Shown piece after piece: positions 24,101-59,500 of a stretch of 64,000 nucleotides of DNA (positions are counted from its first letter, which is position 1; each line of letters starts with the position of its first letter). The position numbers were made by a program, and so were the translations under genes. Origin of the DNA: Antedon mediterranea (Eukaryota; Animalia; Echinodermata); NCBI RefSeq assembly GCF_964355755.1, contig NC_092670.1:25530795-25594794 (forward strand), written 5' to 3'. A model generated the notes under the pieces. It made no database searches, was not told where the DNA came from, and saw nothing but the letters and a program-made list of their open reading frames with translations.

Positions 24101-25902
24101 GGTGCTGGATGTGGCTAAGGTGCATATAAAACAATGGCTCAAATTACCAGGTTAGTTAAATAGGTATTGTAGATATGTTAGCTGAAGAGAATGAGGTGCT
24201 GGATGTGGCTAAGGTGCATATGAAACAATGGCTCAAAATACCAGGTTAGTCAAATAGGTCTGTAGATACATTGAAGAGAATGAGGTGCTGGATGTGGCAA
24301 AGGTGCATATGAAACAATGGCTCAAAATACCAGGTTAGTTGAATTATAGGTCTTGTAGATACATTGAAGAGAATGAGGTGCTGGATGTGGTTAAGGTGCA
24401 TATGAAACAATGGCTCAAAATACCAGGTTAGTTGAATAGGTCTTGTAGATACATTGAAGAGAATGAGGTGCTGGATGTGGCTAAGGTGCATATAAAACAA
24501 TGGCTCAAATTACCAGGTTAGTTAAATAGGTCTTGTAGATATGTTAGCTGAAGAGAATGAGGTGCTGGATGTGGCTAAGGTGCATATGAAACAATGGCTC
24601 AAAATACCAGGTTAGTTGAATAGGTCTGTAGATACATTGAAGAGAATGAGATGCTGGATGTGGCTAAGGTGCATATGAAACAATGGCTCAAAATACCAGG
24701 TTAGTTGAATAGGTCTTGTAGATACATTGAAGAGAATGAGGTGCTGGATGTGGCTAAGGTGCATATGAAACAATGGCTTAAAATACCAGGTTAGTTGAAT
24801 AGGTCTTGTAGATACTGTACATTGAAGAGAATGAGGTGCTGGATGTGGCTAAGGTGCATATGAAACAAGGGCTCAAATTACCAGGTTAGTTGAATAGGTC
24901 TGTAGATACATTGAAGAGAATGAGATGCTGGATGTGACTAAGGTGCATTATTGCACTACAGCTACAAATAAATCTATGTTTAAAATATCTTATACTTTAA
25001 AATGCACAATGATAACATTTTGAAACTAAAATTGTGTTTGTATAAAGACACAGACATTAAATAACGGGTGAATCTAAAATGGTGCAATAACAATGTAGCT
25101 ATACATCTAATTTTTAACTATCTTTGCATTTCATTTTAGTAAAATTGCTGGACAGTTCATTCTGCTTTACTTTCAAGTTTGAACATGTATTAATAATTTA
25201 TAATTTAATCATTATTTGCGAGATTTACGATATCAATGCGCGCTCTGGCTGTAAATTGCTGTGACTTCCTTTTTATGTTTACGTAATAATACTGCATGTT
25301 CATTACAAATGGAACTAGTGCATTAAACAATTAAAACATTGTCAAAAACTTGGTGTATAATGTCAATTTAATCATTATTAATGTCTAGAATGCGTTAATA
25401 TGCTTACTAGATTTATTTACTGTTCATTTCTGTTCATTATGCCAAAAACAATGGGTTTTTTTTGTTTTTGAATAGTACATGACTTTTTACTATTTGCCCT
25501 GTCTGTAGAAACAGTGAGCCAATTTATTACATCTAAAGCATATCCATGTTGAATGTTGGGGCAGAGGAGAAACGGCAAAGAATTACTAGTAGCAAAAAAA
25601 AGCTCCTTTGTCGTCAGAAAGTGAAAGAAAAATGTCCAGTAAAGAACTGTAGCAAAACAGTATAAATATTTCATTGCAAGATTTAGAGTAACCATGTAAC
25701 ATACTTCTCTGAATAAAAAAAAATGTTTTTTCCCCTTTCAGACCATGCTAGAGAAATAAGCAAACAGATGATGAGGAAGAAAACAATTGATAAATTACGA
25801 AGCAGACAAGAGGAAGATATTGCATACTTTACGAAATTTATCCAGAAAGATTCAATCCAATTATCACTAGGGAAATATCTTGAAAGTTTGAAGAAAAAGT
25901 AA
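18187..25902 (+). CDS. ECI1: Enoyl-CoA delta isomerase 1, mitochondrial (crotonase superfamily), ~303 aa
   Basis: Exons 18187-18211 (tentative; ATG 20823 is an alternative start), 20821-20973, 21587-21714, 22258-22404, 22666-22764, 23045-23126, 23578-23694 and 25742-25902 join in frame. Motifs KPVNGLS, IFSAGLDILEM, AINGHSPAGG, IGLNE (catalytic Glu), GIVAPFWF and IPDHAREISKQMMRK; Arg/Ser-rich transit-like N-terminus. Confidence 0.93.
18500..20230. repeat. Dispersed repeat family with internal degenerate sub-repeats (ECI1 intron 1)
   Basis: Inverted homologue of 26380-27500, for example AATGCAAATTTGTGCAAAA..ATAGCTC..GGATGGC.GGTGAC. Confidence 0.6.
21001..21161. mobile_element. Small MITE in ECI1 intron 2
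   Basis: TIR ATTGGTTCCCAC(C/T)AGGACG at both ends. Confidence 0.7.
21278..21445. repeat. 23-bp minisatellite, ~7 copies
   Basis: Unit GGTGCCATGACCCGCCACCAGTT with variants. Confidence 0.9.
23610..24948 (+). repeat. Exon-derived tandem array, ~90-bp unit x15, in ECI1
   Basis: The unit is the last 85 nt of ECI1 exon 23578-23694 plus the donor GTTAGT; period 89-97 bp. Confidence 0.95.
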
Positions 25903-27969: not shown

Positions 27970-29118
27970 TACTTGTGTTGACTGCATCCTTTGCCAAACC
28001 ATCCTGGCTTTGCCGGTGTTTTAATGTTCTGTTTTCACTGTTCTTGTTCTTTTTGGCCTTCTGGTTTGGTACTTGCATTGACTGCATCCTTTGTCAAACC
28101 ATCCTGGCTTTGCCGGTGTTTTAATGTTTTGTTTTCTCTGTTCTTGTTCTTTTTGGCCTTCTGGTTTGGTACTTGCATTGACTGCATCCTTTGCCAAACC
28201 ATCCTGGCTTTGCCGGTGTTTTAATGTTTTGTTTTCTCTGTTCTTGTTCTTTTTGGCCTTCTGGTTTGGTACTTGCATTGACTGCATCCTTTGCCAAACC
28301 ATCCTGGCTTTGCCGGTGTTTTAATGTTTTGTTTTCTCTGTTCTTGTTCTTTTTGGCCTTCTGGTTTGGTACTTGCATTGACTGCATCCTTTGCCAAACC
28401 ATCCTGGTTTTGCCGGTGTTTTAATGTTCTGTTTTCACTGTTCTTGTTCTTTTTGGCCTTCTGGTTTGGTACTTGCATTGACTGCATCCTTTGCCAAACC
28501 ATCCTGGCTATTTCGGTGTTTTAATGTTCTGTTTTCACTGTTCTTGTTCTTCTTGGCCTTCTGGTTTGGTACTTGCATTGACTGCATCCTTTGCCAAACC
28601 ATCCTGGCTATTTCGGTGTTTTAATGTTCTGTTTTCACTGTTCTTGTTCTTCTTGGCCTTCTGGTTTGGTACTTGCGTTGACTGCATCCTTTGTCAAACC
28701 ATCCTGGCTATTTCGGTGTTTTAATGTTCTGTTTTCACTGTTCTTGTTCTTCTTGGCCTTCTGGTTTGGTACTTGCGTTGACTGCATCCTTTGTCAAACC
28801 ATCCTGGCTTTGCCGGTGTTTTAATGTTCTGTTTTCACTGTTCTTGTTCTTCTTGGCCTTCTGGTTTGGTACTTGCATTGACTGCATCCTTTGCCAAACC
28901 ATCCTGGCTTTGCCGGTGTTTTAATGTTCTGTTTTCACTGTTCTTGTTCTTCTTGGCCTTCTGGTTTGGTACTTGCATTGACTGCATCCTTTGTCAAACC
29001 ATCCTGGCTTTGCCGGTGTTTTAATGTTCTGTTTTCTCTGTTCTTGTTCTTTTTGGCCTTCTGGTTTGGTACTTGCGTTGACTGCATCCTTTGCCAAACC
29101 ATCCTGGATTTGCTGGTG
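27970..29118 (-). repeat. Exact 100-bp tandem repeat x~11.5 derived from the SIRT7 C-terminal coding sequence and stop codon
   Basis: The sequence recurs every 100 bp. On the minus strand each unit reads ..[32 protein letters not shown]-stop, and the first unit is the true end of the SIRT7 CDS. Confidence 0.96.
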
Positions 29119-32100
29119 TCTTCTTGTTTTCGGTGTCATCTCCTAATGCTCCTCCCTCTTTCTTTAGTTGTAATATTTTTGTGGTGAAAGTTTTCATTTC
29201 TTTTGATTGTAAAGGAGTAGCAATGTTGAACAGTGGGTCTTCTTCTCTGTAAAGTTATTTATAAAAAAGTTTAGTCGGTAATAATAACATTTCCTACTCT
29301 TAATTTATAATTATTACTTTCCCAGTTTTTTAAAGTCCCTGAACATACATTTATAAAATGTATTAGATGTACCTTTTGTATTCATTCAGTTCAAGATCAA
29401 GTCGATTCATCACAATCTTCATTACATCATCACATTTAGCATTGATTTTTAAATCCGCTTTCAGATCTTTAGGAGTCCACTAAAAATAATAATAATTATA
29501 ATTTATATACAAAAGCACTCAACAATGCACAAATAAACTCTTTGGTGCTTTAAATAATGGACATATAGTTAAAACTAGGTACTATTGTAATAAAAATATT
29601 TTATGATCGAATAAAATTGTTTATATTACTGTGAAATGATCAAGAATAGCTGCAGAGGGCATGGGTATGAAATTTGGCAAAAATTACAGGGTAGGATTAC
29701 ATCAACAACAGATTTATCAAAGTCTTTTTTTTACTAAAGTTAGGGAATGGGATTATCTCAGTCGTGTATGGGATTATCTTGGTCGTTTATGGGATTATAT
29801 ATGTTATAATTAGTGGCTTTTATCTCAACAGAAATGAGATAAAAGATCAACCAATTTAGCCTATTACTTCTTACCTGCAAGTTTACTATGTAAAGTTTTG
29901 ATCGCTTCTTTGTGTTTTGGTTTGTGCTCCACAAACATGGATATTTCTTTAAAACCTGCAAAGAAATGTATTGAAAGCCATTAATATTATTAAGAAGTTA
30001 CTTGTAGCAAGTAGCAAGATTGCACATTTTTGGAACTAAAAACACTCATTGTCGGTTGAATCTCTTGAGGCCAATTTACACAGACAAGCGGTAACGGTAA
30101 GCAGAAAATCTTGTAGCTTTTCCTACGTAAAATCTGTATCCACCCTCGGCAGAAACTGCCCGTCTACTTCGCCCTTTGTGTAAATGGTCATAAGGAATAA
30201 CATAGATTTTATATATTTATTTACATTACCGCTCATCTGTGTAAATTGGCCTTTACAGTTGGTTCATCAGTCAAATTTCATAAATACATGACATACTCTG
30301 AGTAAAAATATTTTTCTTTAAAACGAATATTAAACCAAATTGCCAGCTACAAAGTTGCCTGATTATTTGCATCCAAGCTGTAATAAATGAATACCTTTAA
30401 ACTAGAGCCCATACAAAGTATCATGTCAGCTTTGTTGGCGGCTTCTATTGCCCCATGCCAATTCAGAGGCCATTCTAACGTTCCCTTCTCACCAAAATGC
30501 ACAATGGTATCCAGCAAAGGTGATAAACATTTTGTACATAACCTCCCTGTCTTGTGTCTTCTAAAAGACGTCTTTTCGGTTACGTCAAAAAGTCGGATGT
30601 ATTCTTGTTCGTCGTCGCATTCTGAACAAACCTACAGGGGATTAAAAAAGTTTGACAAATTGGAGAAAAAAGTTAGGAAAGACAGTTTCATTTTGTTTAC
30701 TACAATGGTAAGAAAATATAATGTTTTTGGATGAAATTTGATACCTCAATATACATATTCCCATGTAATTCTGAGAGCTGATATTTAGGAACACCACTCC
30801 TACGATGTAAACCATCACAGTTCTGGGAGACAACATGTTTTACCTAGAAAAATAACAATACTTAAATATCATCATCATTTTGGAATTGGTGGCGCCATAT
30901 AAATGTTTGGTTATTATTATTTACCTCTGCCAAGGATCGCGTGTGTTTGTTTGCTTGTTAATGCAAGATCTTTACCAAAATAAAAATAAAAATAGATACA
31001 GTATGTGGTCGAGAACCACTCCTTTCAATTTTGGAGGCAATTAGTATTTTCAAACCTGCTAGTGTTAAAAGATAGGAGAGAATTTTTAAAAGCCGGCGAG
31101 CAGTCTTAAAGTAACAAGTAAACTGAAATTGCATTTTGTCGAAGTACTTGTCCAAAAAAATGTTTGTTTAAGAGACAAGAGTTATAATTTGTGATTTGTA
31201 ATTTTAAAACATAATTTGACTTAATGTACAGGATTTTTGATGAGTTAAAAAAACCTATTTATTTTCAAATTCACCCGTTTGTTTTTGGCATTTCCTGTTC
31301 TATTGTTCGACAACTAAAACTTTTGTTAGTTGAAAGGCTGGTTACATAACTATTACACCAAAATCACATACACGTCATGCTTGTGGTGAATTAGCCTAAA
31401 TCACACACACAAAAAAAATATATATATTTTTTCGGAGAAATCTTATGTAGGAGAATTTTACAGCAGAGGTACTTTATTGCCTTTTTGGTTAATATTAAAA
31501 CAGTACGTTAGAAGATAACTTACAATATCCTGTTGACACAATCTAGCTAGGCTCATATGTGTGAATGTTGGATCAGCATCAGTCAAAGAACTAGACCTGT
31601 AAGGATTTATTTTCACACAAAGTATTTATACTGACTGTATTAATAAACTACATATTGTACTATTGGTGTAAGATAAGGTTTATTCAGGAAGAAATGTTAT
31701 AATAAATGCAGGAGAAATGTTAACACTAAGACCATTGTCTTTATCTATCAACATTATAAAGTTAATGCGACCACTATTAAATTGGATTTTGAATTAAATA
31801 TCTTATAACTGACAACATCTTATTAACTCCATCAATCTTTTCAAAAACCAAAACTTACGTCACAATTTGTCCTTTTTGAAGTAAAGTCCACACCCCATTT
31901 GGACCTCTATAATCTGGTATAGATGCTGCCTAAAATAAAGAAACTAGAATATGTTTAGTTTTCACAAATGCAAGTCTACTGTACTTCCTGTAATACAGAT
32001 TAGACCATAACAACATTTATGTTGCCCAATTAGTCCACAACTGACCCAAAATTTGGGGGTCAACCTTTGTTTTTGTAATTGTGTATTCTAATTTGTGTTG

Positions 32101-33001
32101 GTATAACATATAACATTCTTTATTTATTGCCTTAACATTACAGTACTAAATAACTCACTGTGCTTATTCCAGCACCACTGTATACAACACAGTACTTGGA
32201 TGATTTGATAGCATCTGCAAGTTCCTCTGCTTTTGTAATTATTTCTTCTGGTGAATCTTCTTTCTTTAAAGTAAATCATAAGTAAAATGTTGATACTTAT
32301 TTAAAGATAGTTGTTCCATGGTGGATGCTTATCCTGTCCCCATTCAAAGTCAATAAATGGTAATAAATCATTGATGTAATATAAAAGACAAAAAATTTAA
32401 ACCTCTTCTTTCTTAAGCTTGGCAAGATTTCTACGGACAGCACGTTTTTCTAATTCATTGACTATTAAATCATTCTCTTTGAGGAACTTTTCTTCAGTTT
32501 TTGTTCTTTGAGATTCTTTTTTCTTCATTATTTGCATCACCTACAATATACAATGAGAAAAAGACGTCTGATAAAAGAATCGCAATGTATAAATTAAATC
32601 ACAATTCAGGAATTAAATTTAATAATAAATTAATACTAGCTAGCCAGGCCTATGCCTATATAATTCTATATAAGTCTCTCGAGTCCTACTTAGTCTCTAG
32701 AGACATCTTTTTCTAAAAACTAGTAAGATGGTGGCACAACATCAGAGAATATTATAATATTGAATATATTTATTAATCTTATTAAAGCATTTCATCGAAT
32801 CCAATCCAGGCCCACATGGTCGGGTCTTGCTTCGGGTCTTCGGCCCGGGATGATTCGGCCCTGGGACGATTCGGCCCGGGACAATTTCGGCCCTGGAAAA
32901 TCTCTCCTCAAAACCCACTTTTTAATTTGTAAATTTCTAAATTGTTCTGTCTTTGTAAAGCGCATTGAGGCTTTCAGCATAATGCGCTATATCAAGTACC
33001 A

Positions 33002-33046
<45 letters not shown>

Positions 33047-35318
33047 GTTTTCATGTTTTACAAATAATATACCACTAAACACAGTAAAACATTGCGATGT
33101 AATACTTTGTTGAAACTATCACCGTCCTAGTCGATTGAAATAGTACAGTAGCCCCTACATGTAACGATACATCACTACGACGTGTATATGTTTATATAAT
33201 GTAAAACAATTTGTGAAAACCACCTCTATTCGGGGAAAATCATAAATTCGATTTAATCGTCAATAAATATTAAATTATCTAACTCAACTTAATTAGTAGG
33301 CCTAATGGTTTTCAATTGTTTCCTAGAGCCAATTCATACTTAAGTTGGTTCCTACCCTACCCACCAAAGTTGTTCTGCGTTTAGGGCATGTGATGTACCG
33401 TAGGCCTATCCTCTACTGGTTTTACAACGCTACTCATGCCAGTGAGGGAAGGGTGATGATGTGGGTGGTTTAACTGCAATAATAAAGATTTATACATAAT
33501 ATACGGCGAGAAAACGCTAGCTCTTTATCCGTTTAAAAAAAATTTATATCCAACCTCTGCAGCACAGATTGAAAAAAAAATGGATCGAATTTCTGTTATG
33601 AGTATACAGTACTTGCCTTTACGACGCCTGAGGGAATAGACACTTGTGGAACAGAGATTGGAATGTTCCATTCATCGCAAATCAATACATTTGTATAAAG
33701 TATATTAAATCTATCAAAATAGTATTTTTTAAAGAAAATCGGCCTGTCTTGAACATTATGATACTGTACTCGAGCTGTTCAACCGGTTTTCAGCCATTAA
33801 AAACAATTATCGTAGGAGGAGATAGGAAAATGCGAAGCATCCTCGTATTATCGTCTGCGGGTATTTTTCAAGACGGACATCCATTAGACAGTGTATACCA
33901 CGATCGAAAAACACCCCTATTTGAGGCAAATCGTTGAACCTAAATTCGTTTTAATCGTCAATAACTAATTATCGAACTCAATTTAATTAGTAAACAGGGT
34001 TACATCAGGCGGTTAAAATCAGTACCGAAAGTACGAACCAACTTTATATACCATCGAGTAAACATTCTAGAAATAACGCGCGATTTACCGAATTTTGCCC
34101 TTACGTAAATTTATATATAGAAATGTTTTCCATCAATTTACTAGAATTTATTTTACTTCTGCTGACACTGAATACATCATTTCATGTCTTCCATTTCTTC
34201 TTTTTTATCTTCTTTCCTGTTGTGTTTATTAAAATAAAATCAAATAAAACATTAAATAATGAAGCAACTATTCATTAACTTAAAATCCGTTTCACGAGGA
34301 ACATGTAAAAAATATTTTATTATCGCCATAATATGACCATAACAGCGTCCTCTATATATCGATGCCCTATGAGGCCTCCGTACTTTCATCGGCAGGCCTA
34401 GCGATGATTTTCGCGAAGCTAAGCTGGCGATGGATTTCTGAAGGGTGCTCAATTATTAATTGATTAAAAATAGTTATAAATAAGAAATTATCGATATTTT
34501 ACCATGTTATGCTTGCTGAATGTTGTAGACAACTCGTGAGTAGGTTAGATGAAGTATTGAAACCATTTTGAGTAATTTTAAGGGGTGGGTACGAAACATA
34601 CTATCGAATCTTTATGCAGTATTGCATTAATAATTTACGTACGGTATTGCCGAATCTTAATATCTCATTTACATACTATTGAATCTTTTTACAGTAGGCC
34701 TATTGCATTAATAATTTACGTATGGTATTGCCGAATCTTTATATCTCATTTACATACTATCGAATCTTTCTACAGTATTGCATTATATATCTAAGATTAC
34801 AAAACATTGAACTAGCGGCCGCTTTGGTTGGCGGCCGCTTTGGTTGGCGGCCGCTTCGACTGTAATTCCACGTCGTCCCTATTACACTATCATAACAGGC
34901 ACTTTTGGCGCTGTCGGCGGCCGAGATGGACCTAAGCCGGTACGAAACTGCATTAGCGCCGAAAACTTGATAAAAACCGAAAAAAAAACTGTATAACATT
35001 ATAATTAACATTAACTATCATTGGTTTTGTCAAAATGTGAGCCGAATAGTCCCAGGCCGATTCGTCCTGGAACCGGCCCTATAGCTAGGCCTATGTCATG
35101 GATGGTGCGTGTCACAGAGAAACGGCCACGGCACGACGAGAGGCTAGGCCTAGGCCTACTACTACTACTAGCCAGGCTTATAATTAACAATGTTTTACCT
35201 GTTTTTCTTTTAATTTAGATTCACTCTTTAGTTTAACCCATGATTTAGCAGCATTTTCTGCCGATTTTCGTCTAGGTGGGCGAGTAGTAGAAGAAGACGT
35301 TTGTTCGTTTTTCGACAT
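29021..35318 (-). CDS. SIRT7: NAD-dependent deacylase sirtuin-7 (class IV sirtuin), ~418 aa
   Basis: Exons 35318-35199, 32540-32403, 32263-32159, 31929-31859, 31596-31524, 30843-30745, 30631-30395, 29955-29875, 29479-29373 and 29246-29021 join in frame. Motifs [40 protein letters not shown], the Zn-binding [37 protein letters not shown] and the SIRT7-type C-terminal GWFGKG. Confidence 0.95.
30068..30252. mobile_element. Small Harbinger-like MITE in a SIRT7 intron
   Basis: TIR AGGCCAATTTACACAGA..AGCGGTAA at both ends. Confidence 0.7.
32825..35075. mobile_element. Probable decayed foldback/Mutator-like element in SIRT7 intron 1
   Basis: Subterminal repeats GATTCGGCCC(T/G)GG at 32840-32897, inverted copies at 35040-35073, and related sequence at 56065-56530. 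No TSD was resolved. Confidence 0.4.
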
Positions 35319-35574
35319 TTAAGCTGATCTCCGTTTCTTCTGTCTTCCTCGAGAATTTGGAATTAATTTGTAAACATCCAACATCGGAAAAAAATAATCA
35401 CAGTCACAAAATTAGCCTCCTTCCCTCTGTCGTCTTGCCAGTTTTTGTAATTAACATACGTACGTCGTCACCGGAGGTATATTCAGAGCGTCATTTCGAC
35501 GATCGAGCATTCTCTACTTCTACGGAGCGCCATTTATGCCTTTATTTACTTACGAAAATTTCGTAAGTAAATGT

Positions 35575-38440
35575 AGCTGCTCCAGTGGACCAAATTTAGC
35601 ACTAGTGATATAACATAGAAATAAGTCACTAATTTTAATATTCTTTTCGTATGTTAATACACTGTGCTCAAGTGGACCCAATTTGGCGCCAGTGAGGAGC
35701 ACAGTGATATAAAATAGAAATAATTGTCACTGAATTTTAATATCTTTTCGTATGTTAATACACTGTGCTCAAGTGGACCCAATTTGGAGCCAAGGGAGCA
35801 CAGTGATATAAAATAGAAATAAGTCACTGAATTTTAATATCTTTTCGTATGTTAATACACTGTGCTCAAGTGGACCCAATTTTGGAGCCAGTGGAGCACA
35901 GTGATATAAAATAGAAATAAGTCACTAAATTTTAATATTATCTTTTCGTATGTTAATACACTGTGCTCAAGTGGACACAATTTGGAGCCAGACGAGCACA
36001 GTGATATAAAATAGAAAAAAGTCACTGAATTTTAATATCTTTTCGTATGTTAATACACTGTGCTCAAGTGGACCCAATTTGGCGCCAGTGAGGAGCACAG
36101 TGATATAAAATAGAAATAATTGTCACTGAATTTTAATATCTTTTCGTATGTTAATACACTGTGCTCAAGTGGACCCAATTTGGAGCCAGGGGAGCACAGT
36201 GATATAAAATAGAAATAAGTCACTGAATTTTAATATCTTTTCGTATGTTAATACACTGTGCTCAAGTGGACCCAATTTGGAGCCAGTGGAGCACAGTGAT
36301 ATAAAATAGAAATAAGTCACTAAATTTTAATATCTTTTCGTATGTTAATACACTGTGCTCAAGTGGACACAATTTGGAGCCAGACGAGCACAGTGATATA
36401 AAATAGAAAAAAGTCACTGAATTTTAATATCTTTTCGTATGTTAATACACTCTGCTCAAGTGGACCCAATTTGGAGCCAAGGGAGCACAGTGATATAAAA
36501 TAGAAATAAGTCACTGAATTTTAATATCTTTTCGTATGTTAATACACTGTGCTCAAGTGGACCCAATTTGGAGCCAGTGGAGCACAGTGATATAAAAAAG
36601 AAATATGTCACTAAATTTTAATATCTTTTCGTATGTTAATACACTGTGCTCAAGTGGACACAATTTGGAGCCAGACGAGCACAGTGATATAAAATAGAAA
36701 AAAATCACTGAATTTTAATATCTTTTCGTATGTTAATACACTGTGCTCAAGTGGACCCGATTTGGAGCCAGGGGAGCACAGTGATATAAAATAGAAATAA
36801 GTCACTGAATTTTAATATCTTTTCGTATGTTAATACACTGTGCTCAAGTGGACCCAATTTTGGAGCCAGTGGAGCACAGTGATATAAAATAGAAATAAGT
36901 CACTAAATTTTAATATTATCTTTTCGTATGTTAATACACTGTGCTCAAGTGGACACAATTTGGAGCCAGATGAGCACAGTGATATAAAATAGAAAAAAGT
37001 CACTGAATTTTAATATCTTTTCGTATGTTAATACACTGTGCTCAAGTGGACCCAATTTGGCGCCAGTGAGGAGCACAGTGATATAAAATAGAAATAATTG
37101 TCACTGAATTTTAATATCTTTTCGTATGTTAATACACTGTGCTCAAGTGGACCCAATTTGGAGCCAGGGGAGCACAGTGATATAAAATAGAAATAAGTCA
37201 CTGAATTTTAATATCTTTTCGTATGTTAATACACTGTGCTCAAGTGGACCCAATTTGGAGCCAGTGGAGCACAGTGATATAAAATAGAAATAAGTCACTA
37301 AATTTTAATATCTTTTCGTATGTTAATACACTGTGCTCAAGTGGACACAATTTGGAGCCAGACGAGCACAGTGATATAAAATAGAAAAAAGTCACTGAAT
37401 TTTAATATCTTTTCGTATGTTAATACACTGTGCTCAAGTGGACCCGATTTGGAGCCAGGGGAGCACAGTGATATAAAATAGAAATAAGTCACTGAATTTT
37501 AATATCTTTTCGTATGTTAATACACTATGCTCAAGTGGACCCAATTTTGGAGCCAGTGGAGCACAGTGATATAAAATAGAAATAAGTCACTAAATTTTAA
37601 TATTATCTTTTCGTATGTTAATACACTGTGCTCAAGTGGACACAATTTGGAGCCAGACGAGCACAGTAATATAAAATAGAAAAAAGTCACTGAATTTTAA
37701 TATCTTTTCGTATGTTAATACACTGTGCTCAAGTGGACCCAATTTGGAGCCAGTGGAGCACAGTGATATAAAATAGAAATAAGTCACTAAATTTTAATAT
37801 CTTTTCGTATGTTAATACACTGTGCTCAAGTGGACACAATTTGGAGGCAGGGTAGCACAGTGATATAAAATAGAAAAAAGGCACTGAATTTTAATATCTT
37901 TTCGTATGTTAATACACTGTGCTCAAGTGGACCCAATTTGGAGCCAGTGGAGCACAGTGATATAAAATAGAAAAAAGTCACTGAATTTTAATATCTTTTT
38001 GTATGTTAATACACTGTGCTCAAGTGGACCCAATTTGGCGCCAGGAGAGCACAGTGATATAAAATAGAAATAAGTCATTGAATGTTAATATATTTTTGCA
38101 TGTTAATACACTGTGCTCAAGTGGACCCAATTTGGCGCCAGTGGAGCACAGTGATATAAAATGGAAAAAGTCACTGAATTTTAATATCTTTTCGTATTTA
38201 ATATACACTATGCGATTTGGAGCCAGGGGAGCACTGTGATATAAAATAGAAATAAGTCACTGAATTTTAATATCTTTTCGTATGTTAATACACTGTGCTT
38301 ACGTGGACCTAATTTGGCGCGCGCGCCAGTGAGCACAGTAACATAAAATAGAAAAAAAGTCACTAAATTTTAATATCTTTTCGTATGTTAATACACTGTG
38401 CTCAAGTGGACCCAATTTGGCACCAATGGGAGCACAGGGA
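35575..38440 (+). repeat. 97-bp satellite, left arm of the foldback element, ~30 copies
   Basis: Unit CACTGTGCTCAAGTGGACCCAATTTGGAGCCAGTGGAGCACAGTGATATAAAATAGAAATAAGTCACTGAATTTTAATATCTTTTCGTATGTTAATA; period 97-101 bp. Confidence 0.95.
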
Positions 38441-39799
38441 AATAGTCACATACAAAAACATCGAGAAAAAATACTTCTGGAATTAAAAAATATTTCAAAC
38501 TTGGTATATATGTTCGATATCGGTTACTCCATCCGTAAACCAAAAGAAAAAATAGTTACAAGCCACATCAGTGATTTTAATAACGTGCGTTCGCTTAAGA
38601 TAATACTTATGGAAAAACATACAATTCCGACACATATTATGTTAAACTCTAATAATGATTTTGACAACAACAACAAAAAAAAACGGTTAGGAATTCGATT
38701 TTTTCCCTGTAAATTGAGCAACTTAAATTTAAAATATACCAAGAAATATATATTGAAATCAAGGAGTATTTTTTTTTTTCTAAAGAAATGCTCGTATGTT
38801 AATACACTGTGCTCCAGTGGATCCAATTTGGCGCCAGTGGAGCACACGGAAATAGTCACATACAAAAACTTCTAGAAAAAATATTTATCGAATTCAAAAA
38901 TATTTCAAACTTGGTATATAAGTTAAATATCGGTTACTCCATCCGTAATGCAAAAGAAAAATTAGTTTCAAGCCATATCAGTGATTTTAATAAATTGCGT
39001 TTGTCTAAGAAAAATACTTATGAAAGAACATACAATTCCAACACATTTTTTTAAACTTTAGCGATTAAAAAAAAGACATTATGTTAAAAATATGAATTAT
39101 GTAGTAACATATTGAACGTGTAGTAACCTATTGAACGTATACTACCAAATTTCAAATGTGTAGGACAATTATTTTATGACGATCAAAATTTAAAGTTTAA
39201 AAAATGTGTTGGAATTCTATGTTCTATCATAAATATACATTTTAAACGAACGAAAATTACTAAAATCACTGATATGGCTTGAAACTAATTTTTCTTTTGC
39301 ATTACGAATGGAGTAACCGATATTGAACTTATATACCAAGTTTGAAATATTTTTGAAATCCAGAAGTATTTTTTCTTGATGTTTTTGTATGTGACTATTT
39401 CCCTGTGCTCCACTGGCGCCAAATTGGATCCACTGGAGCACAGTGTATTAACATACGAACATTTCTTTTGTAAACAAAAAATACTCCTTAATTTCAATAT
39501 ATATTTCTTGATATATTTTTAATTTAAGTTGCTCAATTTACAGGGAAAAATCGAATTCCTAACCGGTTTTTTTTTTGTTAAAATCATTATTAGAGTTTAA
39601 CATATGTGTCGGAATTGTATGTTTTTTTTCGTAAGTATTATCTTAAGCAAACGCAAGTTATTAAAATCACTGATGTGGCTTGAAACTATTTTTTCTTTTG
39701 GTTTACGGATGGAGTAACCGATATTGAACAAATATACCAAGTTTGAAATATTTTTAAATTCCAGAAGTATTTTTTCTCGATGTTTTTGTATGTGACTAT

Positions 39800-41320
39800 T
39801 TTCCTGTGCTCCCATTGGTGCCAAATTGGGTCCACTTGAGCACAGTGTATTAAAATACGAAAAGATATCATAATTTAGTGACTTTTTTCTATTTTATATC
39901 ACTGTGTGCTCACTGGCACGGCGCGCGCGCCAAATTGGGTCCACGTCGTGAGCACAGGGTATTAACATACGAAAAGATATTAAAATTCAGTGACTTATTT
40001 CTATTTTATATCACTGTGCTCCACTGGCTCCAAATTGGGTCCACTTGAGCACGGTGTATTAACATACGAAAAGATATTAAAATTCAGTGACTTTTTTCTA
40101 TTTTATATCACTGTGCTCCACTGGCTCCAAATTGGGTCCACTTGAGCACGGTGTATTAACATACGAAAAGATATAAAAATTCAGTGACTTTTTTCTATTT
40201 TATATCACTGTGCTCCACTGGCTCCAAATTGGGTCCACTTGAGCACGGTGTATTAACATACGAAAAGATATTAAAATTCAGTGACTTTTTTCTATTTTAT
40301 ATCACTGTGCTCCACTGGCTCCAAATTGGGTCCACTTGAGCACAGTGTATTAACATACGAAAAGATATTAAAATTCAGTGACTTTTTTATATTTTATATC
40401 ACTGTGCTCCTCTGGCTCCAAATTGGGTCCACTTGAGCACAGTGTATTAACATACGAAAAGATATTAAAATTCAGTGACTTATTTATATTTTATATCACT
40501 GTGCTCCACTGGCTCCAAATTGGGTCCACTTGAGCACGGTGTATTAACATACGATCGAAAAGATATTAAAATTCAGTGACTTTTTTCTATTTTATATCAC
40601 TGTGCTCCACTGGCTCCAAATTGGGTCCACTTGAGAACAGTGTATTAACATACGAAAAGATATTAAAATTCAGTGACTTATTTCTATTTTATATCACTGT
40701 GCTCCACTGGCTCCAAATTGGGTCCACTTGAGAACAGTGTATTAACATACGAAAAGATACTAAAAATCAGTGACTTTTTTTCTATTTTATATCACTGTGC
40801 TCCACTGGCTCCAAATTGGGTCCACTTGAGAACAGTGTATTAACATACGAAAAGATATTAAAATTCAGTGACTTTTTTATATTTTATATCACTGTGCTCC
40901 ACTGGCTCCAAATTGGGTCCACTTGAGAACAGTGTATTAACATACGAAAAGATATTAAAATTCAGTGACTTATTTCTATTTTATATCACTCTTCCTGTGC
41001 TCCCCTGGCTCCAAATTGGGTCCACTTGAGCACAGTGTATTAACATACGAAAAGATACTAAAAATCATTGACTTATTTCTATTTTATATCACTGTGCTCT
41101 CCTGGCTCCAAATTGGGTCCACTTGAGCACAGTGTATTAACATACGAAAAGATATTAAAATTCAGTGATTTATTTCTATTACTGTGCTCCTCTGTCTCCA
41201 AATTGGGTCCACTTGAGCACAGTGTATTTACATACGAAAAGATATTAAAATTAGTGACTTATTTCTATTTTATATCACTGTGCTCCACCGGTGCTGAATT
41301 TGGTCCACTGGAGCAGTTAC
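39800..41320 (-). repeat. 97-bp satellite, right arm (inverted), ~16 copies
   Basis: Reverse complement of the left-arm unit. Confidence 0.95.
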
Positions 41321-41547
41321 CGTAGTACTATTTCTAATTCGGAAGTAAATAAAGGCATAAATGGCGCTCCGTAGAAGTAGAGAATGCTCGATCGTCGAAA
41401 TGACGCTCTGAATATACCTCGTCACCGTACACAAACAATGTGACAACGTCTGGAGCGGGGAGAATTACTTTTTAACTAGGCATAATAGGCTTAGAAAAGG
41501 GCCAGGCCACCAGTTTTTTTTTCTGCTCTCAATACAATTTAGAAAAG

Positions 41548-44500
41548 ATGGCAAATTATGAATGGTAAGAATAAAAATTAACATTTATGATAAATTAGCC
41601 TAGTCTATTTGTATTAGTAGCCTAGACGAACTAGGCTAGGCCTATAGCTAAGCCTGGCTATAATGCCTCTCGGCTGGCCTCTATCTATTAGTATTAGTTA
41701 GGGTCACACTCACACAGTGCATATCGGCCGCCAGTCTATTCGGCCGCCGGTTATGGAACGCCTAAAATCATGAAACGCCAAAAAGGACAAAATATGTATT
41801 GTTCATTTCGGCCGCAACAATCGTCAATATTGTTAATGTATGGCACGCCTCAATTATAAAAAATGGTGTTATACATGTGCCTAGGCCTATCGCCTGAAAA
41901 TAGACGTGCGTATTCAAACAGCAAGCAGCAATCAACAAAAACGATCATACTTTTTGATTTGTATAGAGGGGTGTCACGAAACCTAAGACCACGAAAGCTA
42001 AGATTCCCTAAGACCTAAGATCACGAAAGCTAAGACCCAACCAAGAACTAAGATTACAAATTCTAAGATATACTACAGCTTAAAAACAATACTTGTTTAT
42101 CCATACATAATTTTAAACATAGTAGGTTTCATTTATTACCATAAATATAATTAAATACTACCGCAAAACATAGATAAACTCACGTTATTTTCGCCCGTTG
42201 AGTAAATGTATATTTTTTCTTTACAACAAACAAACTTGACGGGTTGTTTGTTGGTATATATTTACTCCATTGTGTTGGTTCAGAGGATGTTTTTCTTTCG
42301 CACCTGCCTTTCTTGTATTTTGACTCCAAATTTGTTAACTAACTTTATCCTGAATACCACACTTTAAAATTAGGACTTATAAGTACTTTCAGAAGGAGAA
42401 ACACATAAAAACAAACTAGATTTAATTCGTCACTATGACGAATTATAGGTTATAAGCATTGATTTAAATAAAGATAATTGATTTTTAAAAGATATATTGA
42501 TTGATTGATTTTCTCAGAATCTTTAATTTATAATATATGATAGGACCTTGCTAACGCGAACACCATAGCCGGTATCACAATCCGATCAAAGATCCCTCTG
42601 GGTATAATGTCATAAACCGCATTTGTTGTTACATAATAATAAAGACATAAAGTAACTTTTTATCTAGATTTCATTATAAATCATGTGTATAATCTATACA
42701 CTAAGAAATAAATTTGAACAAACAATACGGATAATAAAAAAAAAATCTTATTTCGTTTCCCAAGGTGAAACTCGAACTCGGTACCTTGAATGGCATAGAC
42801 ACGAGCACAGACCATCGAGCCATACACAACTGACTAAAAGTTGGAGAAAAATTCCTTCGTGTATTTACTATGCAGTAACCACTTTGGTGCAGATAGATTA
42901 TTACATACCGCAATGGATTATAATGTTTTACTATGATGACATCTTTAAAAATTGAAAAAAATGATGCACTGTCAAACTATATACTTTTAACTTTAATATA
43001 TGAACTTCTTAAGGAAGAAAGTTAATGTTAAAGGGGGATTCTGGGTTTAAAATTGGTTTTAAATATCGTTTATTTATTAAATAAAAAATATTATAACAAT
43101 ATAGACATGTCAGAATGAAGAAGTAATAACGAGGAATTAAAAAAATTAAATTTCATATACATTTTAGGGTAAATTCATGGAAAGTCTGTTTTTCAGCAGC
43201 TTAGGGAAGCTCATTAATATTCATGAGATATTCACAAAATCACGTCACCAGTGGATTCCAAACTCGCGACGTCATGTACGTTGTGTTTGTCAACTAATTT
43301 ACATCTCTCTCCCCTGTCAAACGACGACCACCCGATCATTGTGAAATACATTTTTTGTAGATTTTCTAAGCTAGGCCTAAAGTGTAATAATAACAGTAGT
43401 AGCATATATTTATTTGACATTTAATGAAATACAAAATTTAGTACAGATACGGAGTCATAAAATTATACTACAGTATTTTTATACCTCTATAGTACAGATC
43501 GTGTTATCGGCTTCACGTACAATACTACTCTAGGCCTAGCCTAATAATAATATGGGCGAGAGCCATTCTGACTAGGGATTCCATGCCACGATGGCTACGT
43601 TAAAACAATGGGGCCCATGGGCCTAGCTAGCCTACTACTAGACGATTGGCCCATAAATAACAAAACCCATCCTATCAACCAAACTCCTAAACAATCTAAA
43701 CCTAAAACGTTCTACAAAATCGGCTGTAAATATTGAAGCAAAACAAGGTCCGATCGCCGTCCACACGTATGGTGTCCCGATCGTCTAAGTAGGCCTAAAA
43801 TAAAATAGGCTTAGTTTACTCTCCAAAAAAGCGGATACTCGACTCATGCATCAAGCAAGTAGACCAGGTAGTAGGAAGGAGACCTAGCCGATCCGGCCCA
43901 GGTAAAAATTGAGCTAGCTAGTGTAGTAGACCCTATGCGAATTGATACTACCAGGCCTTTTACTATAGGCTGCACTACACAAATATTCCAACTCTCTCAT
44001 TCGAGCTATATTATCTATACCATTCCGGTAGGTCAAGTCGACCTTCAATCAAATACTGTACATCGTTCATGTTGTGATTATAGACGGGGTATACTCGACC
44101 CGACCAGTTTGGTATTGTTGTATCTGCTTATCACGTGACGATGCCAGGCATGGGCAGCAGAGAGAGCACGTGTATTTTCGTCTCGCTCGATCCTCAGCAG
44201 GAATGTACAGTATACGTTACGCTTCATTGATTTTGATTTTTCCCTAAGTCGGTGCGAAAATCGGCAAACGTAAAGTGCAAACATATCTAATTTTTCACTG
44301 TTTTGATGAATTTTCATAAAAAATTGACTTTATAAATGGGAAGACCGACTAAAATTACATCAGATAAGTATAATTTTACAAAAGTAATTGATATGGTTTA
44401 TGATAACGAGTCGTCGGAAGATGGACCATTTCACGAATTTCCTATTTTGTAACCACAGTGTGATTTTGCCGTAGCTGCACTTGTAATCTGGCCTGATTTC

Positions 44501-47500: not shown

Positions 47501-50500
47501 TGTCATTTAACAAAATTTGCTTCGCCTCAGGCCCCACCCCAGGGGGGTAGGTATGGGGGTGGGGGTGACCCAAATACTTAGTGTGCAAACCCCCCCTTGA
47601 CAGATCCTGGCTACGGCCCTGTCATGCATCAAATTCCTTTATGGTATAAACCTCATTGAGCTGGTATCCACTTGCAGGTATAGAACGAGTTTCGTAATTA
47701 ACTGTGATTAAAAAATACGCAATAGGCGCGTCTACTTGTTTAACTATTAAATTATTATTTATTTTCAAAACCTTAAACAACGGCATGCTAAAAGAACACA
47801 TTACAATTCATTAAAACCTGTAAGATAAAATGGAAACACAAATTATTTATAAATAATGAGATAAATATTTATATTTACTGTACCTAAAAAATATCGATCG
47901 AGGTTTAAAAAAATGTCAAACAGTATTATTAGAAATTCCAATATTCAAAATTAACTAAAAACATAATGAACGTTTTCATTAAAAATGTATCTAATGCGCC
48001 ATATACAAATTAGCGCGACCAAAATAAAACGCGACCGATATCAAGCGTAACTAATAGGATAAAAAGCGTATCTAGCGGCGCTCCATACAAAATACCGGAT
48101 GTTTATTTTATCGCGACCGATTTCAAACACGATCGATTTCAAGCGCGACCGATTTCATCTGACACCATTTACACACGTATATTCAGGCGATAGGCACATG
48201 TATACACCCTTTTTGACAATTAAGGCGTGCCATACGTTATTAACAATATTGACGATTCTGGCGGCCGAAATGAACAATACATATAATAATAAAAAAATAA
48301 TAAACAGTATTTATATAGCGCCACCTAATGAATCACTGACCCCTCTAGGTGCTTTACATTAGACCTTAACTAATGGTAATAAACTATCCCCCGCCGGACA
48401 CCATTCCGGTATTTCTTAGTCAAGGTTTCGGGGATGGAGACAATCAATAATGTGAAAAAAAAATGTAACTAAGCTTAACTATGCTTAACTAAGGTAAAAC
48501 GTATTTTGTCTTTTTTGGCGTTTCATGATTTTGGGCGTTCCATAACCGGCGGCCAAAATGACTGGCGGCCGAAAAGATCAGACACATATGTGCCCTTTTT
48601 GACAATTAAGGCGTGCCATACGTTATTAACAATATTGACGATTCTGGCGGCCGAAATGAACAATACATATAATAATAAAAAAATAATAAACAGTATTTAT
48701 ATAGCGCCTAATGGATCACTGACCTCTCTAGGTGCTTTACATTAGACCTTAACTAATGGTAATAAACTATCCCCCGCCGGACACCATTCCGGTATTTCTT
48801 AGTCGAGGTTTCGGGGATGGAAACAATCAATAATGTAAAAAAAAAATGTAACTAAGCTTAACTATGCTTAACTAAGGTAAAACATATTTTGTCTTTTTTG
48901 CCGTTTCATGATTTTGGGCGTTCCATAACCGGCGGCCGAAATGACTGGCGGCCAAAATGATCAGACACCTATCTAAGACTCCCAGACCGTATATTATTAT
49001 TGATTTTGATCCAAGTCGGCCCTAAACCGTCTCGGCCAAAGTCAAGTCGGCCTCAAGTCAACTCTGCCTCAAGTCAACTCTGCCTCAAGTCAACTCGGCC
49101 TCAAGTCAACTCGGCCTCACGTCAACTCGGGCAAAAAATAATCGGTCAACTCGGCCCTGTTAAAGTATGGAATGCAAAAGGTGCAAAGGAAGGGGATTGA
49201 TAAAATAATATTTCTTCACATTTTAAATATTAATATTTAGACAATAATACATTTAGCAAAAAAAATAAGAAGGATTTCACCATCTTTCCTTTATTTACGT
49301 TTAATAAAATTAACAAACAATTGATTAATAAGCTAGCATTCATACTATTATTAATGATTACAATATGAACATTTGGAAAATAAATAGGAACACATTGTAG
49401 ACCCAATAATGATGATGCACGTACGTGGGCGCGTACAGTGGCGTATCCAGTATCCCCTGATTTCGTGTCCGTCGGCACACGTCATCGCGTCTGTCGGCAA
49501 ACAAAGGGAAAAAAATAAAGTTAGGCAAATAAGAATAAACTATTATTCTGACAATAATTGAACTGTAAACATAATTTTTTTTTTTTTTTTTTTTTTTATT
49601 CAGTATACACAGAGGCGCCTTACAAGATGGAACCACCTTAGCTTCAAGGCGCCTCAGATTAACAAATACAACATTTTAAAACAACTAACAGAAACATCAA
49701 TCAAATCTTCCAGAATTAACAAGAAATTGTTGTACATAATAAAATAATAAAGCATTTTCACAATTCGAAAGAAGATCGGAACCAAAAATAAAAATTTCAC
49801 TTAAAAATGTAAAATTAAATGTTAAAGAAAAATCCTTGGCTAAGATATCCTCAATAATTGAGTTAGCGCTTACAAGTAGAATATCTCTTTGTGTATTATA
49901 ATTAGGGCAGTAACATAAGAAATGAAGCGGATTCTCAACATTAAAGCCACAAGTACAATTTGGATTGTCCCGAAGTCCATGATGATGTAAGAATAAATGC
50001 GAATTGAGACAGCTGAAACCAAGTCGGATTCTAGTGTGAATTTGGTTAATCTTCTTATCACCTGTATCATAATAAGAACGTTTTTTTGTTTTAAACAAAT
50101 TGGATTTCAGTAGCAATTTTTTAAACTCAACAAGAGATGAGGAATTTTTTATTTCATTATTTAACTCATTCCAATGTGTTATAATAGATGGGACAATAAA
50201 TGATATGATGTGGTCTTACAAAATGGAATTATTATATTTCGGATGTTACGCAAGTTATAAACTTCAATATTCTCAGAAAAATTAAATAAGGAGTAAAGAT
50301 ACATTGGTGTTAACTTATGAATAATTTTAAAAAACAGTATTAGGTGAAGAAATTGTCTACGTTTTTTCAATGATAACCAGCCTAATTCTTGTCTTAATGC
50401 ATTATGACTTGTAATTTGTATGTTTCCACGCACCAGTACATATTCTACCTGCAGAAATCTGGATATTTTCTAGTTCATCACTTAATTTATCTGGAATATT

Positions 50501-56500: not shown

Positions 56501-59500
56501 AATCGCAAATTTAATAAAACATGAAAACAAATTAAATTTCATTACTGAATGGATAAAGAATATATTTCAATCTTCCTCCTTCAACCCTAATGTTACATAA
56601 AACACAAATTGAGTTTCTTTAAAATATGACTCAAACTCATTCTGACAAGTTTCTCTTTCGAAAGTAATTCCCAGGGTGCAACACTAATTCATTGTGTCTA
56701 TTCGTTCCCGTGAACAACTGGTATATAGTCCTGTGGTACCCAACTATGCATTGCATACATTTGAAAATTGCCAGTTTTTTACGCTGAAGTTATGTATTCG
56801 AGAACCATCTGTGGGCACAACCTACAGTAGATGGTAAGCGAGTGTACCATCTAGTTTATAATAAATCATCTAATATTATAGACTTCAGTTTTGAGAAGAA
56901 AAACAAACAATAAAATTAGCATAAATTTATTTTACTGTTTTTACTCGACTCACATTGTTTCAAATTTGTATTCACTTTATTGTGCAACCATTTTTTAAAG
57001 TTGAAAATTATGTATCCGCAGCATTTCTTTAATGTATAAAATTTGTACACAATAATTTGCAGGTCATCAAGACCACGTAACTATGAAAGGGAACGAAAAC
57101 AAACAGCACTAGCCTCAGAACCAACATTTGAACATCCTCTTAAATTGATAACGGTCAGTACAACTTCTTTTGATATTATTGAAATTCCAGGGTTGATTAT
57201 TATTACTATTATAGATATATATACTGTAGCGCTTTTCCAAGAGACCAAAAGCTCCTGAGATGTATATCCCTTCCTAATAAGGAAAGCATTGTGGATGAAG
57301 AGAAAAATGAAGAGAAGTGAGGTGTTGATATTCTTTGCCAATTTGAATGTGATTAGCAGAATGTGTGTAACAAACAGAATAATAGCCTTGATCTTCTTTG
57401 TATCCAGTCATAAAAGAAAGTTACAGGATACAAATTAGTTTCTTTGTATAGGTATCTGAAGTAAAAGTAAAGAAGTCAACTAAATCTAGCATCAAATCTA
57501 AGTCTACTCCTCTAGCGAAGAAACCATCAATATCAGCAGACCCTCTTTCTAGTGCCCTGGATGGCACAGATCCCCTCTCTCAACTTGCAGCTTCTTCTGT
57601 CATTGATCCTCTTTCCAGAGCTGCTGCTAGTGGGTCTATTGTAAAACCCGGAAGGAAAGATTCAGTAAGTTTTACTATTTTCCTTCTTTTTTTGACAGAT
57701 GTTGTTTTAGCAAAAATAACTGTTTTTATATGATTTGTTTATCTTTGTTAACATTTAAAAGAACCATTTATTAACTTTAGGATAGAATTGTTTGGTATTT
57801 GTTTTTTTTTTAAATTATTGTTTTATCTTTGTATGAGACAAACACCATTATTTCCACTTGTTCTGTGGATGAAATAAAATTATCTTATCTATTCCCTTAA
57901 AAAAAAAATCATTTTCTTCACTATATAAAAAGATAAGGACATACTGTAGCATGTGCAAGCAACAGTAGACAATTCTGATTATGCTCTTTAAGAACTCGCC
58001 TAAAAAGTAGTCTTTTGGCTTTCCAACTAAGTTATCTTCTAAAGTTTGAAGTTAATATCTATAAGAAAAGCAACTTACTTTGAAACTTGCACGAAAAAAA
58101 AAAATAAGGCCACTGAAGACTTACAAGAAAGAAATTTATTAACTTATGTTTTCAACTTTTAATAAAGAAGATGAACTGCAAGAATGTATGATTACTCTAG
58201 ATGATATTGTACTATGACACCAAACAATTCAGAACAAATAAAAACACAAATACAAACCTTGTAAACATCAGTGTTTTCACTGAATTGCCATAGTTTTTTT
58301 TCTCTTTTGTGGTTAACCACCACCTTTATTCATTCAATCTTTCATACATATTTCGTTCACATTTCATTTTCGTACATTAAATTTCCCTTTTCTACTTTTT
58401 TCGTTATTTTCTAATTTTTACACTTTTAACCTTTATACATAGTGTTTTGATTTATATGCATACAAAAAACCATACAAATCTACACTTCATTTTGTACATG
58501 ATGTAATACATTTTAAAATACAAATATGAATGCTACTTATAGGTTACAACATGCCTAGTGTGTTTATATCTTTTAAAATATATTTAAACTGAATCCAAGG
58601 ATTCTGGATTCTAATTGCCATAGTTTGGTAAATACATTTGATCACATTAAAAATTATATTTCAACTCTGAATTATCCATTTACAATAATAGGACTGACTG
58701 AAACCTGGCTATCTGGAAATTCTGATATGAAATTATATAACCTACGTAATTATGATGTTATCCCATGTAATAGAGCAACAAGAACCGGTGGTGCAATCTA
58801 TATTAATAATGATATAAGATATAAAATTAAAGAAATGATCAATTACTTGCTGGTGGTGCGAGTGTCTTTGTTGAAACTGTCAACAATTATTAGAAATAGG
58901 AAAATAGAATATTATGACAATAAAATCAAAAGAATGTTAATAACGTTAAAAATATGTGGAAAGTAATAAATAAAGTATTATGTAGAAATAGAAAAAAAAA
59001 ATATTCTTCTTGTTCTTCATGGCTGGCTGGCATCACTGAACACGATATTATGAAAGTAAATTAGATAAGAATAAGTCATGTGGTCATGATGATATAATGA
59101 TAACATATATTGTAAGTAATTATGACCTTATTTAAAAACCAATTGCTCATATTGTTAACAAATCACTTGAGAGTTAGTGGTATATTTCTAGATCAATTAA
59201 AAAAGCGAAAACTGTGCCTGTGTATAAAAAAGGGCAATAAAGATAAGGTCAGCACTTACAGACTGATATCTATCTTACCATGTCTATCTAAGATCTATGA
59301 GAGGGTAGTGTACTATCAGACAATGTCATTTTTACTGAAATATTATGTATTTAGCGAGTCGCAATATGGGTTTAGGGAGGATTCAACCAAACAAGCACTT
59401 TTCCAAACATAGACACATTGACTAAAGAAATTGATAATAAAAAGGAATAGGGGTTCCTAGATCTGTCAAAAGCATTTGACTATGAATCATGAAATACTGC

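What the first reader, a model, noticed from the sequence alone, without database searches (positions are those of the whole stretch)
35318..41550. A 5.9-kb palindromic foldback element splits a ~275-bp bidirectional promoter between SIRT7 and VPS35L
Seen: the SIRT7 ATG (35318, -) and the VPS35L ATG (41548, +) diverge. Between them lies an element at 35474-41420 with perfect TIRs and a duplicated target GTCACCG. Removing it and one TSD leaves only ~275 bp between the start codons (155 + 120 bp), typical of a shared head-to-head promoter. Both ORFs look intact. Inference: because the element is a palindrome, each gene now has the same CpG-containing ~90-bp TIR in the same relative orientation, 130-155 bp upstream of its ATG. 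The TIR could therefore act as a symmetric, transposon-supplied promoter or insulator that uncouples or rewires the pair. The perfect TIRs suggest a young and possibly polymorphic insertion.
Basis: partly seen in the sequence, partly recalled or inferred. Interest (0 to 1): 0.85.

Follow-up and report, generated by a model that had tools for sequence, protein, structure and literature searches.

The report
Foldback transposon splits feather-star gene pair
A 5.9-kb gene-less insertion with long inverted-repeat arms sits in the middle of the short stretch between two back-to-back genes of a feather star; a close relative lacks it and both genes' transcripts appear to start outside it, so it is likely a tolerated jumping-DNA insertion of a known design rather than a new promoter.

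Summary
The insertion is real: 5,947 bp (35474-41420), 78-bp perfect terminal inverted repeats (not ~90), opposed 97-bp arrays (29 vs 14 units, so about 71% palindromic), and a duplicated 7-bp target. SIRT7 and VPS35L are confirmed, and the SIRT7 protein matches Antedon mediterranea. One DNA contig of a related organism joins the two flanks directly (empty site). RNA contigs of both organisms splice MANYEW to 57063 and begin within 3 bp of each other, about 91 bp outside the element; a SIRT7 contig begins 79 bp outside it. That is a weak hint against the TIR being the core promoter; an upstream or insulating role is untested. The ends recur at many other loci in both organisms. The one sample of the window's organism with a contig at the left junction looks homozygous, so 'young and polymorphic' is not supported. 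Best reading: a non-autonomous foldback transposon (Tetris/Rehavkus/Galileo design; superfamily open) that landed between two start sites and is tolerated. The scan's unchecked notes report similar elements between back-to-back genes twice in this genome and promoter-proximal insertions in three other genomes.

The parts
29021..35318 (-). SIRT7 coding region; exon 1 = 35318-35199
   Evidence: tblastn of P0001; Pfam SIR2; PDB SIRT7 E 6e-31
35319..35466 (-). Native SIRT7 side of the old shared intergenic region; RNA contig of run X8 begins at 35395
   Evidence: table 8 records 31, 15, 23
35467..35473 (+). Left copy of the 7-bp target duplication
35474..35551 (+). Left perfect terminal inverted repeat, 78 bp
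35598..38444 (+). Left array of 97-bp units, 29.1 copies, with a 978-bp-offset block duplication (458 bp exact)
38429..39054 (+). Left inner domain: about 1.5 copies of a 411-bp unit that contains a 97-bp-like piece
39055..39195 (.). 141-bp unpaired central spacer
   Evidence: (I15)
39196..39815 (-). Right inner domain, 93.5% identical to the left one
39930..41315 (-). Right array of 97-bp units, 14.2 copies, opposed to the left array, with its own variants
41343..41420 (-). Right perfect terminal inverted repeat, 78 bp; copies at other loci end at the same base
   Evidence: table 7
41421..41427 (+). Right copy of the 7-bp target duplication
41428..41547 (+). Native VPS35L side of the old shared intergenic region; RNA contigs begin at 41511 (X8) and 41514 (X9)
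   Evidence: table 8 records 23, 31, 15
41548..41564 (+). VPS35L first coding exon (MANYE plus split W codon)
   Evidence: loose ends at 41566
57063..57153 (+). VPS35L exon 2 (start shown by RNA contigs; end read from the sequence)

Best explanation
The element is a gene-less insertion with modular inverted-repeat arms, likely a non-autonomous foldback DNA transposon that a transposase encoded elsewhere likely pasted into the open DNA between the SIRT7 and VPS35L start sites, and both genes likely keep transcribing from their own native start sites on either side. Steps. Shown: anatomy, duplicated target, many other copies of the ends, empty site in a relative, both genes spliced in the window's organism. 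Inferred: (1) a cut-and-paste transposase recognised the 78-bp ends, with the 97-bp units as extra binding sites as shown for Muta1; (2) it chose this site because some TIR transposons (maize Mu, Drosophila P) home to Pol II start sites; (3) the two arrays changed copy number independently by unequal exchange or slippage; (4) the old ~160-bp gap between the two start sites behaves as two separable halves of 80-90 bp, so the insertion is near-neutral and has become common or fixed in this species after the split from organism B.
For: Anatomy matches Tetris (flanking domain, tandem-repeat domain, inner domain, non-coding middle; PMC4079207 passages). No coding remnant found: 0 Pfam hits for 3 element ORFs, 0 hits for the longest, 177-aa ORF among 1.84 billion proteins, 0 Rfam hits. 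Ends are a dispersed family: 35 contigs in four runs (10, 7, 15, 3) leave the TIR exactly at 41420 into unrelated flanks, agreement 0.43-0.57, and 14 more one base later. Empty site: X5 contig of 1,145 nt, depth 34.7, lies on 35119-35466 with letters 643-997 and on 41431-41596 with letters 478-637; X7 stops at the same left base and runs on for 80 letters. RNA contigs start outside the element and at nearly the same VPS35L position in both organisms; X8 has no cover in the bins 41423-41506. X2 contig 35150-35499 has depth 283 against 272-285 for five other low-mismatch pieces. In maize, 0 of 4 Mu promoter insertions changed expression and proximal-promoter MULEs are purged less efficiently (PMC7337890 passages).
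Against: No transposase was linked to these ends, and no second complete copy was seen because no whole genome is held. A 7-bp target is shorter than the 8-11 bp given for MULEs (PMC6446971). Organism B has 5 letters where the rebuilt empty site of the window has 10, so the site is not a clean match and direction (gain vs loss) rests on parsimony. The X2 contig reaches only 26 letters into the element, under the tool's 31-letter rule for bridging, and the right junction was not bridged in X1, whose contig stops at 41437. Genotypes of RNA samples S4 and S5 are unknown. Expression levels were not measurable.
Confidence: 0.75

Rival explanations
1. Co-option: the outward-facing TIRs, now about 80-90 bp upstream of each start site, replace the upstream activating sequence each gene used to borrow from its partner's side, or the AT-rich arrays insulate the pair; this would explain why an insertion at such a tight site became common.
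For: Geometry: each gene keeps only 79 or 91 bp of native DNA upstream of its RNA contig start, followed by the same 78-bp TIR; both are still expressed and spliced in organism A; the sample tested looks homozygous; MULE TIRs are reported to hold promoters (PMC6446971 passage).
Against: RNA contig starts lie outside the element and match organism B within 3 bp for VPS35L; TIR CpG is like the native flank; the same TIR sits at many unrelated loci; promoter-proximal Mu insertions were mostly neutral.
Confidence: 0.13
2. Reversed polarity: the element was present in the ancestor of both organisms and was excised imprecisely in organism B.
For: Organism B's site is 5 letters shorter than the rebuilt empty site, right at the insertion point; Muta1 excision can lose a few flanking bases (PMC5225508 passage); the TIR family is abundant in organism B too.
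Against: Indels are frequent in these flanks anyway (35 gap letters in 348 bp, 8 in 166 bp). TIRs and target copies show 0 differences in 85 sites (bound 3.5% pairwise), while the flanks differ from organism B by 2.6-7.1% in substitutions; this favours, without proving, insertion after the split.
Confidence: 0.07
3. Assembly artefact: a fold-back chimera or mis-joined repeat.
For: Long inverted repeats are artefact-prone (own knowledge); the left array has a 458-bp exact duplication at 978-bp offset, so its copy number could be overstated; no contig spans the element.
Against: Arms are not mirror copies (29 vs 14 units, arm-specific variants, longest exact arm-to-arm match 118 bp, inner domains 93.5% identical); the target is duplicated; organism B joins the two flanks; an X2 contig holds the left junction.
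Confidence: 0.03

Closest known systems
Tetris foldback element of Drosophila virilis (PMC4079207, passages read)
   Same: Long modular TIRs with an outer flanking domain, a variable tandem array and an inner domain; non-coding middle; no autonomous partner found
   Different: Tetris has 220-bp units and 8-10-bp TSDs; here 97-bp units, a 78-bp perfect end and a 7-bp TSD; no sequence link tested
Rehavkus and TfSat06 elements of Tribolium (PMC12581902, passages; PMC6446971, passages)
   Same: Satellite-like arrays forming inverted termini; mobile satellite behaviour
   Different: Rehavkus has a 9-bp TSD and a known PHD-finger transposase; neither is shown here
Galileo, P superfamily, Drosophila (PMC3573991, passages)
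   Same: 7-bp target duplication; long TIRs whose internal tandem repeats vary independently between the two arms
   Different: Galileo ends begin CA (recalled, not from a call), this one begins GAGG; no THAP transposase linked
Muta1 and its non-autonomous derivatives, Aedes aegypti (PMC5225508, PMC5499845, passages)
   Same: Foldback MULE whose derivatives have unequal repeat numbers at the two ends; more subterminal repeats raise binding and excision (the model used for the 97-bp units)
   Different: 12-bp repeats in 145-bp TIRs and 8-9-bp TSDs; far smaller
TSS-targeting ('type A') insertion by maize Mu and Drosophila P (PMC7337890, passages)
   Same: Insertion within 100 bp of Pol II start sites with little apparent effect on the gene
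   Different: Shown there from large de novo sets; here one site, and flanks of other copies were not mapped to genes

Membership tests
Foldback-type non-autonomous TIR transposon (structural class) | Long modular TIRs with internal tandem repeats | tested here: met
Foldback-type non-autonomous TIR transposon (structural class) | Target-site duplication and an empty site | tested here: met
   X5 contig (site 5 letters shorter than predicted)
Foldback-type non-autonomous TIR transposon (structural class) | Dispersed copies sharing the ends | tested here: met
   35 contigs leave the TIR at 41420 into different flanks; whether they carry the arrays was not tested
Foldback-type non-autonomous TIR transposon (structural class) | No transposase inside | tested here: met
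   3 ORFs; 1 ORF; shorter or spliced remnants not excluded
MULE/MuDR superfamily including Rehavkus | TSD of 8-11 bp (9 in Rehavkus) | tested here: inconclusive
   7 bp outside the element; a 9-bp repeat exists if the terminal TC is shared (chance about 0.05), which would need a later 2-bp loss; one site only
MULE/MuDR superfamily including Rehavkus | Mobilised by a MULE DDE transposase in an element with the same ends | not testable with these tools
   no genome held; no look-alike in the scan's notes; 0 matches in metagenome contigs
P superfamily (Galileo-like) | 7-bp TSD | tested here: met
   Galileo 7 bp from PMC3573991
P superfamily (Galileo-like) | Ends beginning CA (recalled feature) | tested here: not met
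   ends begin GAGG; the defining motif is from memory
P superfamily (Galileo-like) | THAP-domain transposase partner | not testable with these tools
   no genome held
Bidirectional (head-to-head) promoter | Divergent start sites under 1 kb apart in the empty allele | tested here: met
   275 bp ATG to ATG, about 162 bp between RNA contig starts; organism B contig joins both sides
Bidirectional (head-to-head) promoter | Shared cis-elements or co-regulation | not testable with these tools
   needs reporters or expression series
Transposon-supplied promoter (exaptation) | Host transcripts start within the element | tested here: inconclusive
   RNA contigs start 79 and 91-94 bp outside, which points against it; contigs cannot fix starts and sample genotypes are unknown

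The most novel reading that the evidence does not exclude
Feather-star foldback elements home to the nucleosome-free gap between divergent housekeeping start sites and carry, in their symmetric ends, upstream activating or insulating sequence that compensates both cut promoter halves. Here such an insertion has gone to fixation and permanently uncoupled SIRT7 from VPS35L. The family may also belong to an undescribed group with GAGG ends and a 7-bp target duplication.
Probability: 0.12. Interest if true: 0.62.

Novelty: new member of a known kind. Interest (0 to 1): 0.3.

Why it matters
As it stands it is a clean natural experiment. A 5.9-kb insertion cuts a ~160-bp gap between two start sites in half, a sister species keeps the empty state, and both genes are still transcribed in the species that carries it. 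That makes it a handy test of whether a head-to-head promoter is two independent halves. If foldback ends proved to compensate the cut halves, it would explain how large elements survive at start sites. The element design itself is already described in flies, beetles and mosquitoes.

Tried and rejected
Whole-genome search for other copies and the transposase: no genome held. TIR pattern in metagenome contigs: 0 matches. Scan notes by sequence: no look-alikes for the TIR or inner domain, nothing near the window. No second copy within the window. Coding remnant: none. RNA family: none. No run is on record as RNA; X8 and X9 are taken as RNA-derived only because their contigs are spliced. X1's contig stops at 41437, leaving the right junction unbridged; a hole proves nothing. 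Summed depth over the TIR is about 1,400 (X1), 1,700 (X5) and 2,100 (X2) times single-copy depth, which the tool says is not a copy number; I use it only as 'many'. Contig depths were not used to compare expression. TGTGAC lies upstream of both genes in the sense direction (35403-35408, 41439-41444) but is at chance frequency in the window (25 found, 25.35 expected) and was picked after the fact; not used as evidence. CpG richness of the TIR as a promoter sign: rejected. Paper searches for this element or for transposons splitting head-to-head promoters listed nothing on point by title or abstract start; the library is open-access only and no supplements were read.
Full report
Observation. The window holds a 5,947-bp element at 35474-41420 flanked by GTCACCG at 35467-35473 and 41421-41427. 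Its ends are perfect inverted repeats for 78 bp, then diverge. Inward lie opposed arrays of a 97-bp unit, 29.1 copies on the left and 14.2 on the right, then inner domains built from a ~411-bp unit (93.5% identical between arms), around a 141-bp spacer. The arms are 3,581 and 2,225 bp, 95.9% identical over aligned columns, and about 71% of the element can pair. It is a foldback element, not a full palindrome. Removing it and one target copy leaves 275 bp between the two ATGs.

The genes. The minus-strand gene is SIRT7 (Pfam SIR2; PDB SIRT7 at E 6e-31). The best of 209 database hits, P0001, is named SIRT7-like of Antedon mediterranea and is 100% identical over exons 1 and 2, so the window is from that feather star or a near-identical one (for lineage). 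The plus-strand gene is VPS35L: exon 3 matches human VPS35L at E 0.0003. I checked only the first three VPS35L exons.

Not an artefact. The two arrays carry arm-specific variants and their own block duplications, share only the boundary variants, and have no exact match longer than 118 bp. A mirror chimera would be near-identical. In run X5 (organism B) one 1,145-nt contig of depth 34.7 lies on 35119-35466 with letters 643-997 and on 41431-41596 with letters 478-637: the two flanks are joined with no element. Organism B has 5 letters where the rebuilt empty site has 10, which I cannot explain beyond the high local indel rate. The unit number of the left array is unverified; it holds a 458-bp exact repeat at 978-bp offset.

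A dispersed family. With the last 46 bp of the TIR in the query, 10, 7, 15 and 3 contigs of X1, X8, X5 and X9 leave it exactly at 41420 into unrelated flanks (agreement 0.43-0.57, no target motif), and 5, 4, 4 and 1 one base later (30 further rows not shown). So the terminal base belongs to the element, the family is spread in both organisms, and the duplication outside the element is 7 bp. A 9-bp direct repeat also exists if the last two TIR bases are counted (chance about 0.05), so an eroded 9-bp target is possible. No coding remnant was found: 0 Pfam hits for three element ORFs, 0 hits for the 177-aa ORF in 1.84 billion proteins, 0 Rfam hits. No genome was available to find the transposase.

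Age and frequency. Zero differences in 85 paired sites bound divergence below 3.5% pairwise, 1.8% per copy; flanks differ from organism B by 2.6-7.1% in substitutions. That fits insertion after the split but does not make it very young. In run X2 (organism A, sample S1, possibly the source of the assembly) a contig runs from 35150 through the target and 26 letters into the TIR at depth 283, like five other low-mismatch pieces at 272-285. An empty allele would be expected to fork the assembly graph at 35473 and end the contig there (inference). The same contig lacks 7 letters that the window has, as does the X8 contig, so it is not simply the window's haplotype. I therefore read S1 as probably homozygous. 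Caveats: 26 letters is under the tool's 31-letter rule for bridging, contigs show presence and not absence, and X1 did not bridge the right junction.

Is the TIR a promoter? The X8 contig for SIRT7 begins at 35395, 79 bp outside the element. The VPS35L contigs begin at 41511 (X8) and 41514 (X9), 91-94 bp outside, and X8 has no cover in the bins 41423-41506. In the empty state the two starts would be about 162 bp apart, with the insertion near the middle. Still, it points to unchanged native starts. TIR CpG (6 in 78 bp, o/e 1.73) is like the native left flank (8 in 155, o/e 1.48). What stays open is whether the TIR, now 80-90 bp upstream of each start, supplies upstream activation or whether the arrays insulate.

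Mechanism. Most likely (0.75) a transposase acting in trans bound the 78-bp ends, helped by the tandem units (shown for Muta1: more subterminal repeats raise binding and excision; PMC5499845 passages), and inserted into the open gap between two Pol II starts. Maize Mu and Drosophila P are strongly enriched at start sites, 0 of 4 tested Mu promoter insertions changed expression, and proximal-promoter MULEs persist (PMC7337890 passages). Independent change of repeat number in the two arms is described for Galileo (PMC3573991 passages). All of these steps are inferred by analogy. Rivals: co-option of the TIR or arrays (0.13), excision in organism B (0.07), artefact (0.03).

Comparison. The design matches Tetris (PMC4079207 passages), Rehavkus/TfSat06 (PMC12581902 passages) and Tm1 (PMC3169594 passages). 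It works like a foldback transposon and meets the structural tests. Superfamily is open: MULE TSDs are given as 8-11 bp (PMC6446971 passages; Muta1 8-9 bp, PMC5225508), Galileo has 7 bp but, from memory, CA ends. Repbase classes such elements by TSD and terminal sequence (PMC4455052 passages), which needs more copies. I read passages only and no supplements. Searches listed no paper on this element or on a foldback splitting a head-to-head pair. The scan's unchecked notes describe two 19-kb satellite foldbacks between back-to-back genes in this genome and promoter-proximal insertions in three other genomes; none matched this sequence. They were selected by readers for being striking, so they suggest but do not show homing.

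Verdict. Real, well-defined, a new member of a known kind. The regulatory claim is unsupported at the level of start sites and untested at the level of upstream control. Interest 0.3.

Noticed in passing
window 27970-29119: The 100-bp x 11.5 tandem array is the last ~36 codons and stop of SIRT7 repeated downstream; the 100-bp period breaks frame, so the protein ends in the first copy and the rest would lie in the 3' UTR.
   Followed up: partly
window 35467-35473 / 41428-41430 vs run X5: Organism B has 5 letters where the rebuilt empty site has 10: chance indel or excision scar.
   Followed up: partly
window 35197-35395: The window has 7 letters that contigs of X2 and X8 lack: an indel polymorphism in SIRT7 exon 1 or its 5' region.
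   Followed up: no
window 41431-41467: 37 bp next to the target are unchanged in organism B while 41468-41508 has four substitutions and three deletions; holds TGTGAC and a GC-rich box, a possible native VPS35L element. Weak.
   Followed up: partly
window 36253-36297 (each 97-bp unit): Each unit holds its own ~9-10-bp inverted repeat around a ~25-bp spacer, predicted DNA hairpin of -13.5 kcal/mol, no shuffle control; a candidate transposase binding site.
   Followed up: partly
window 41596/41597: Organism B carries 168 extra letters in VPS35L intron 1 here.
   Followed up: no
window 1411-2777 (+) and 2880-5003 (-): Two convergent sialyltransferase (GT29) genes.
   Followed up: no
window 21418-22473 (+): Exons of an enoyl-CoA hydratase/isomerase gene convergent with SIRT7; a 183/273-bp minisatellite lies at 23608-24948.
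   Followed up: no
window 49697-52324 (-) and 58577-63350 (+): Broken LINE-type reverse transcriptase elements in VPS35L introns (RVT_1 hit for 51069-51896).
   Followed up: no
runs X9 records 24 and 29: Two 1.6-kb contigs of high depth (234, 291) in the spliced run of organism B end in this TIR, so copies may sit at the ends of other transcripts.
   Followed up: no
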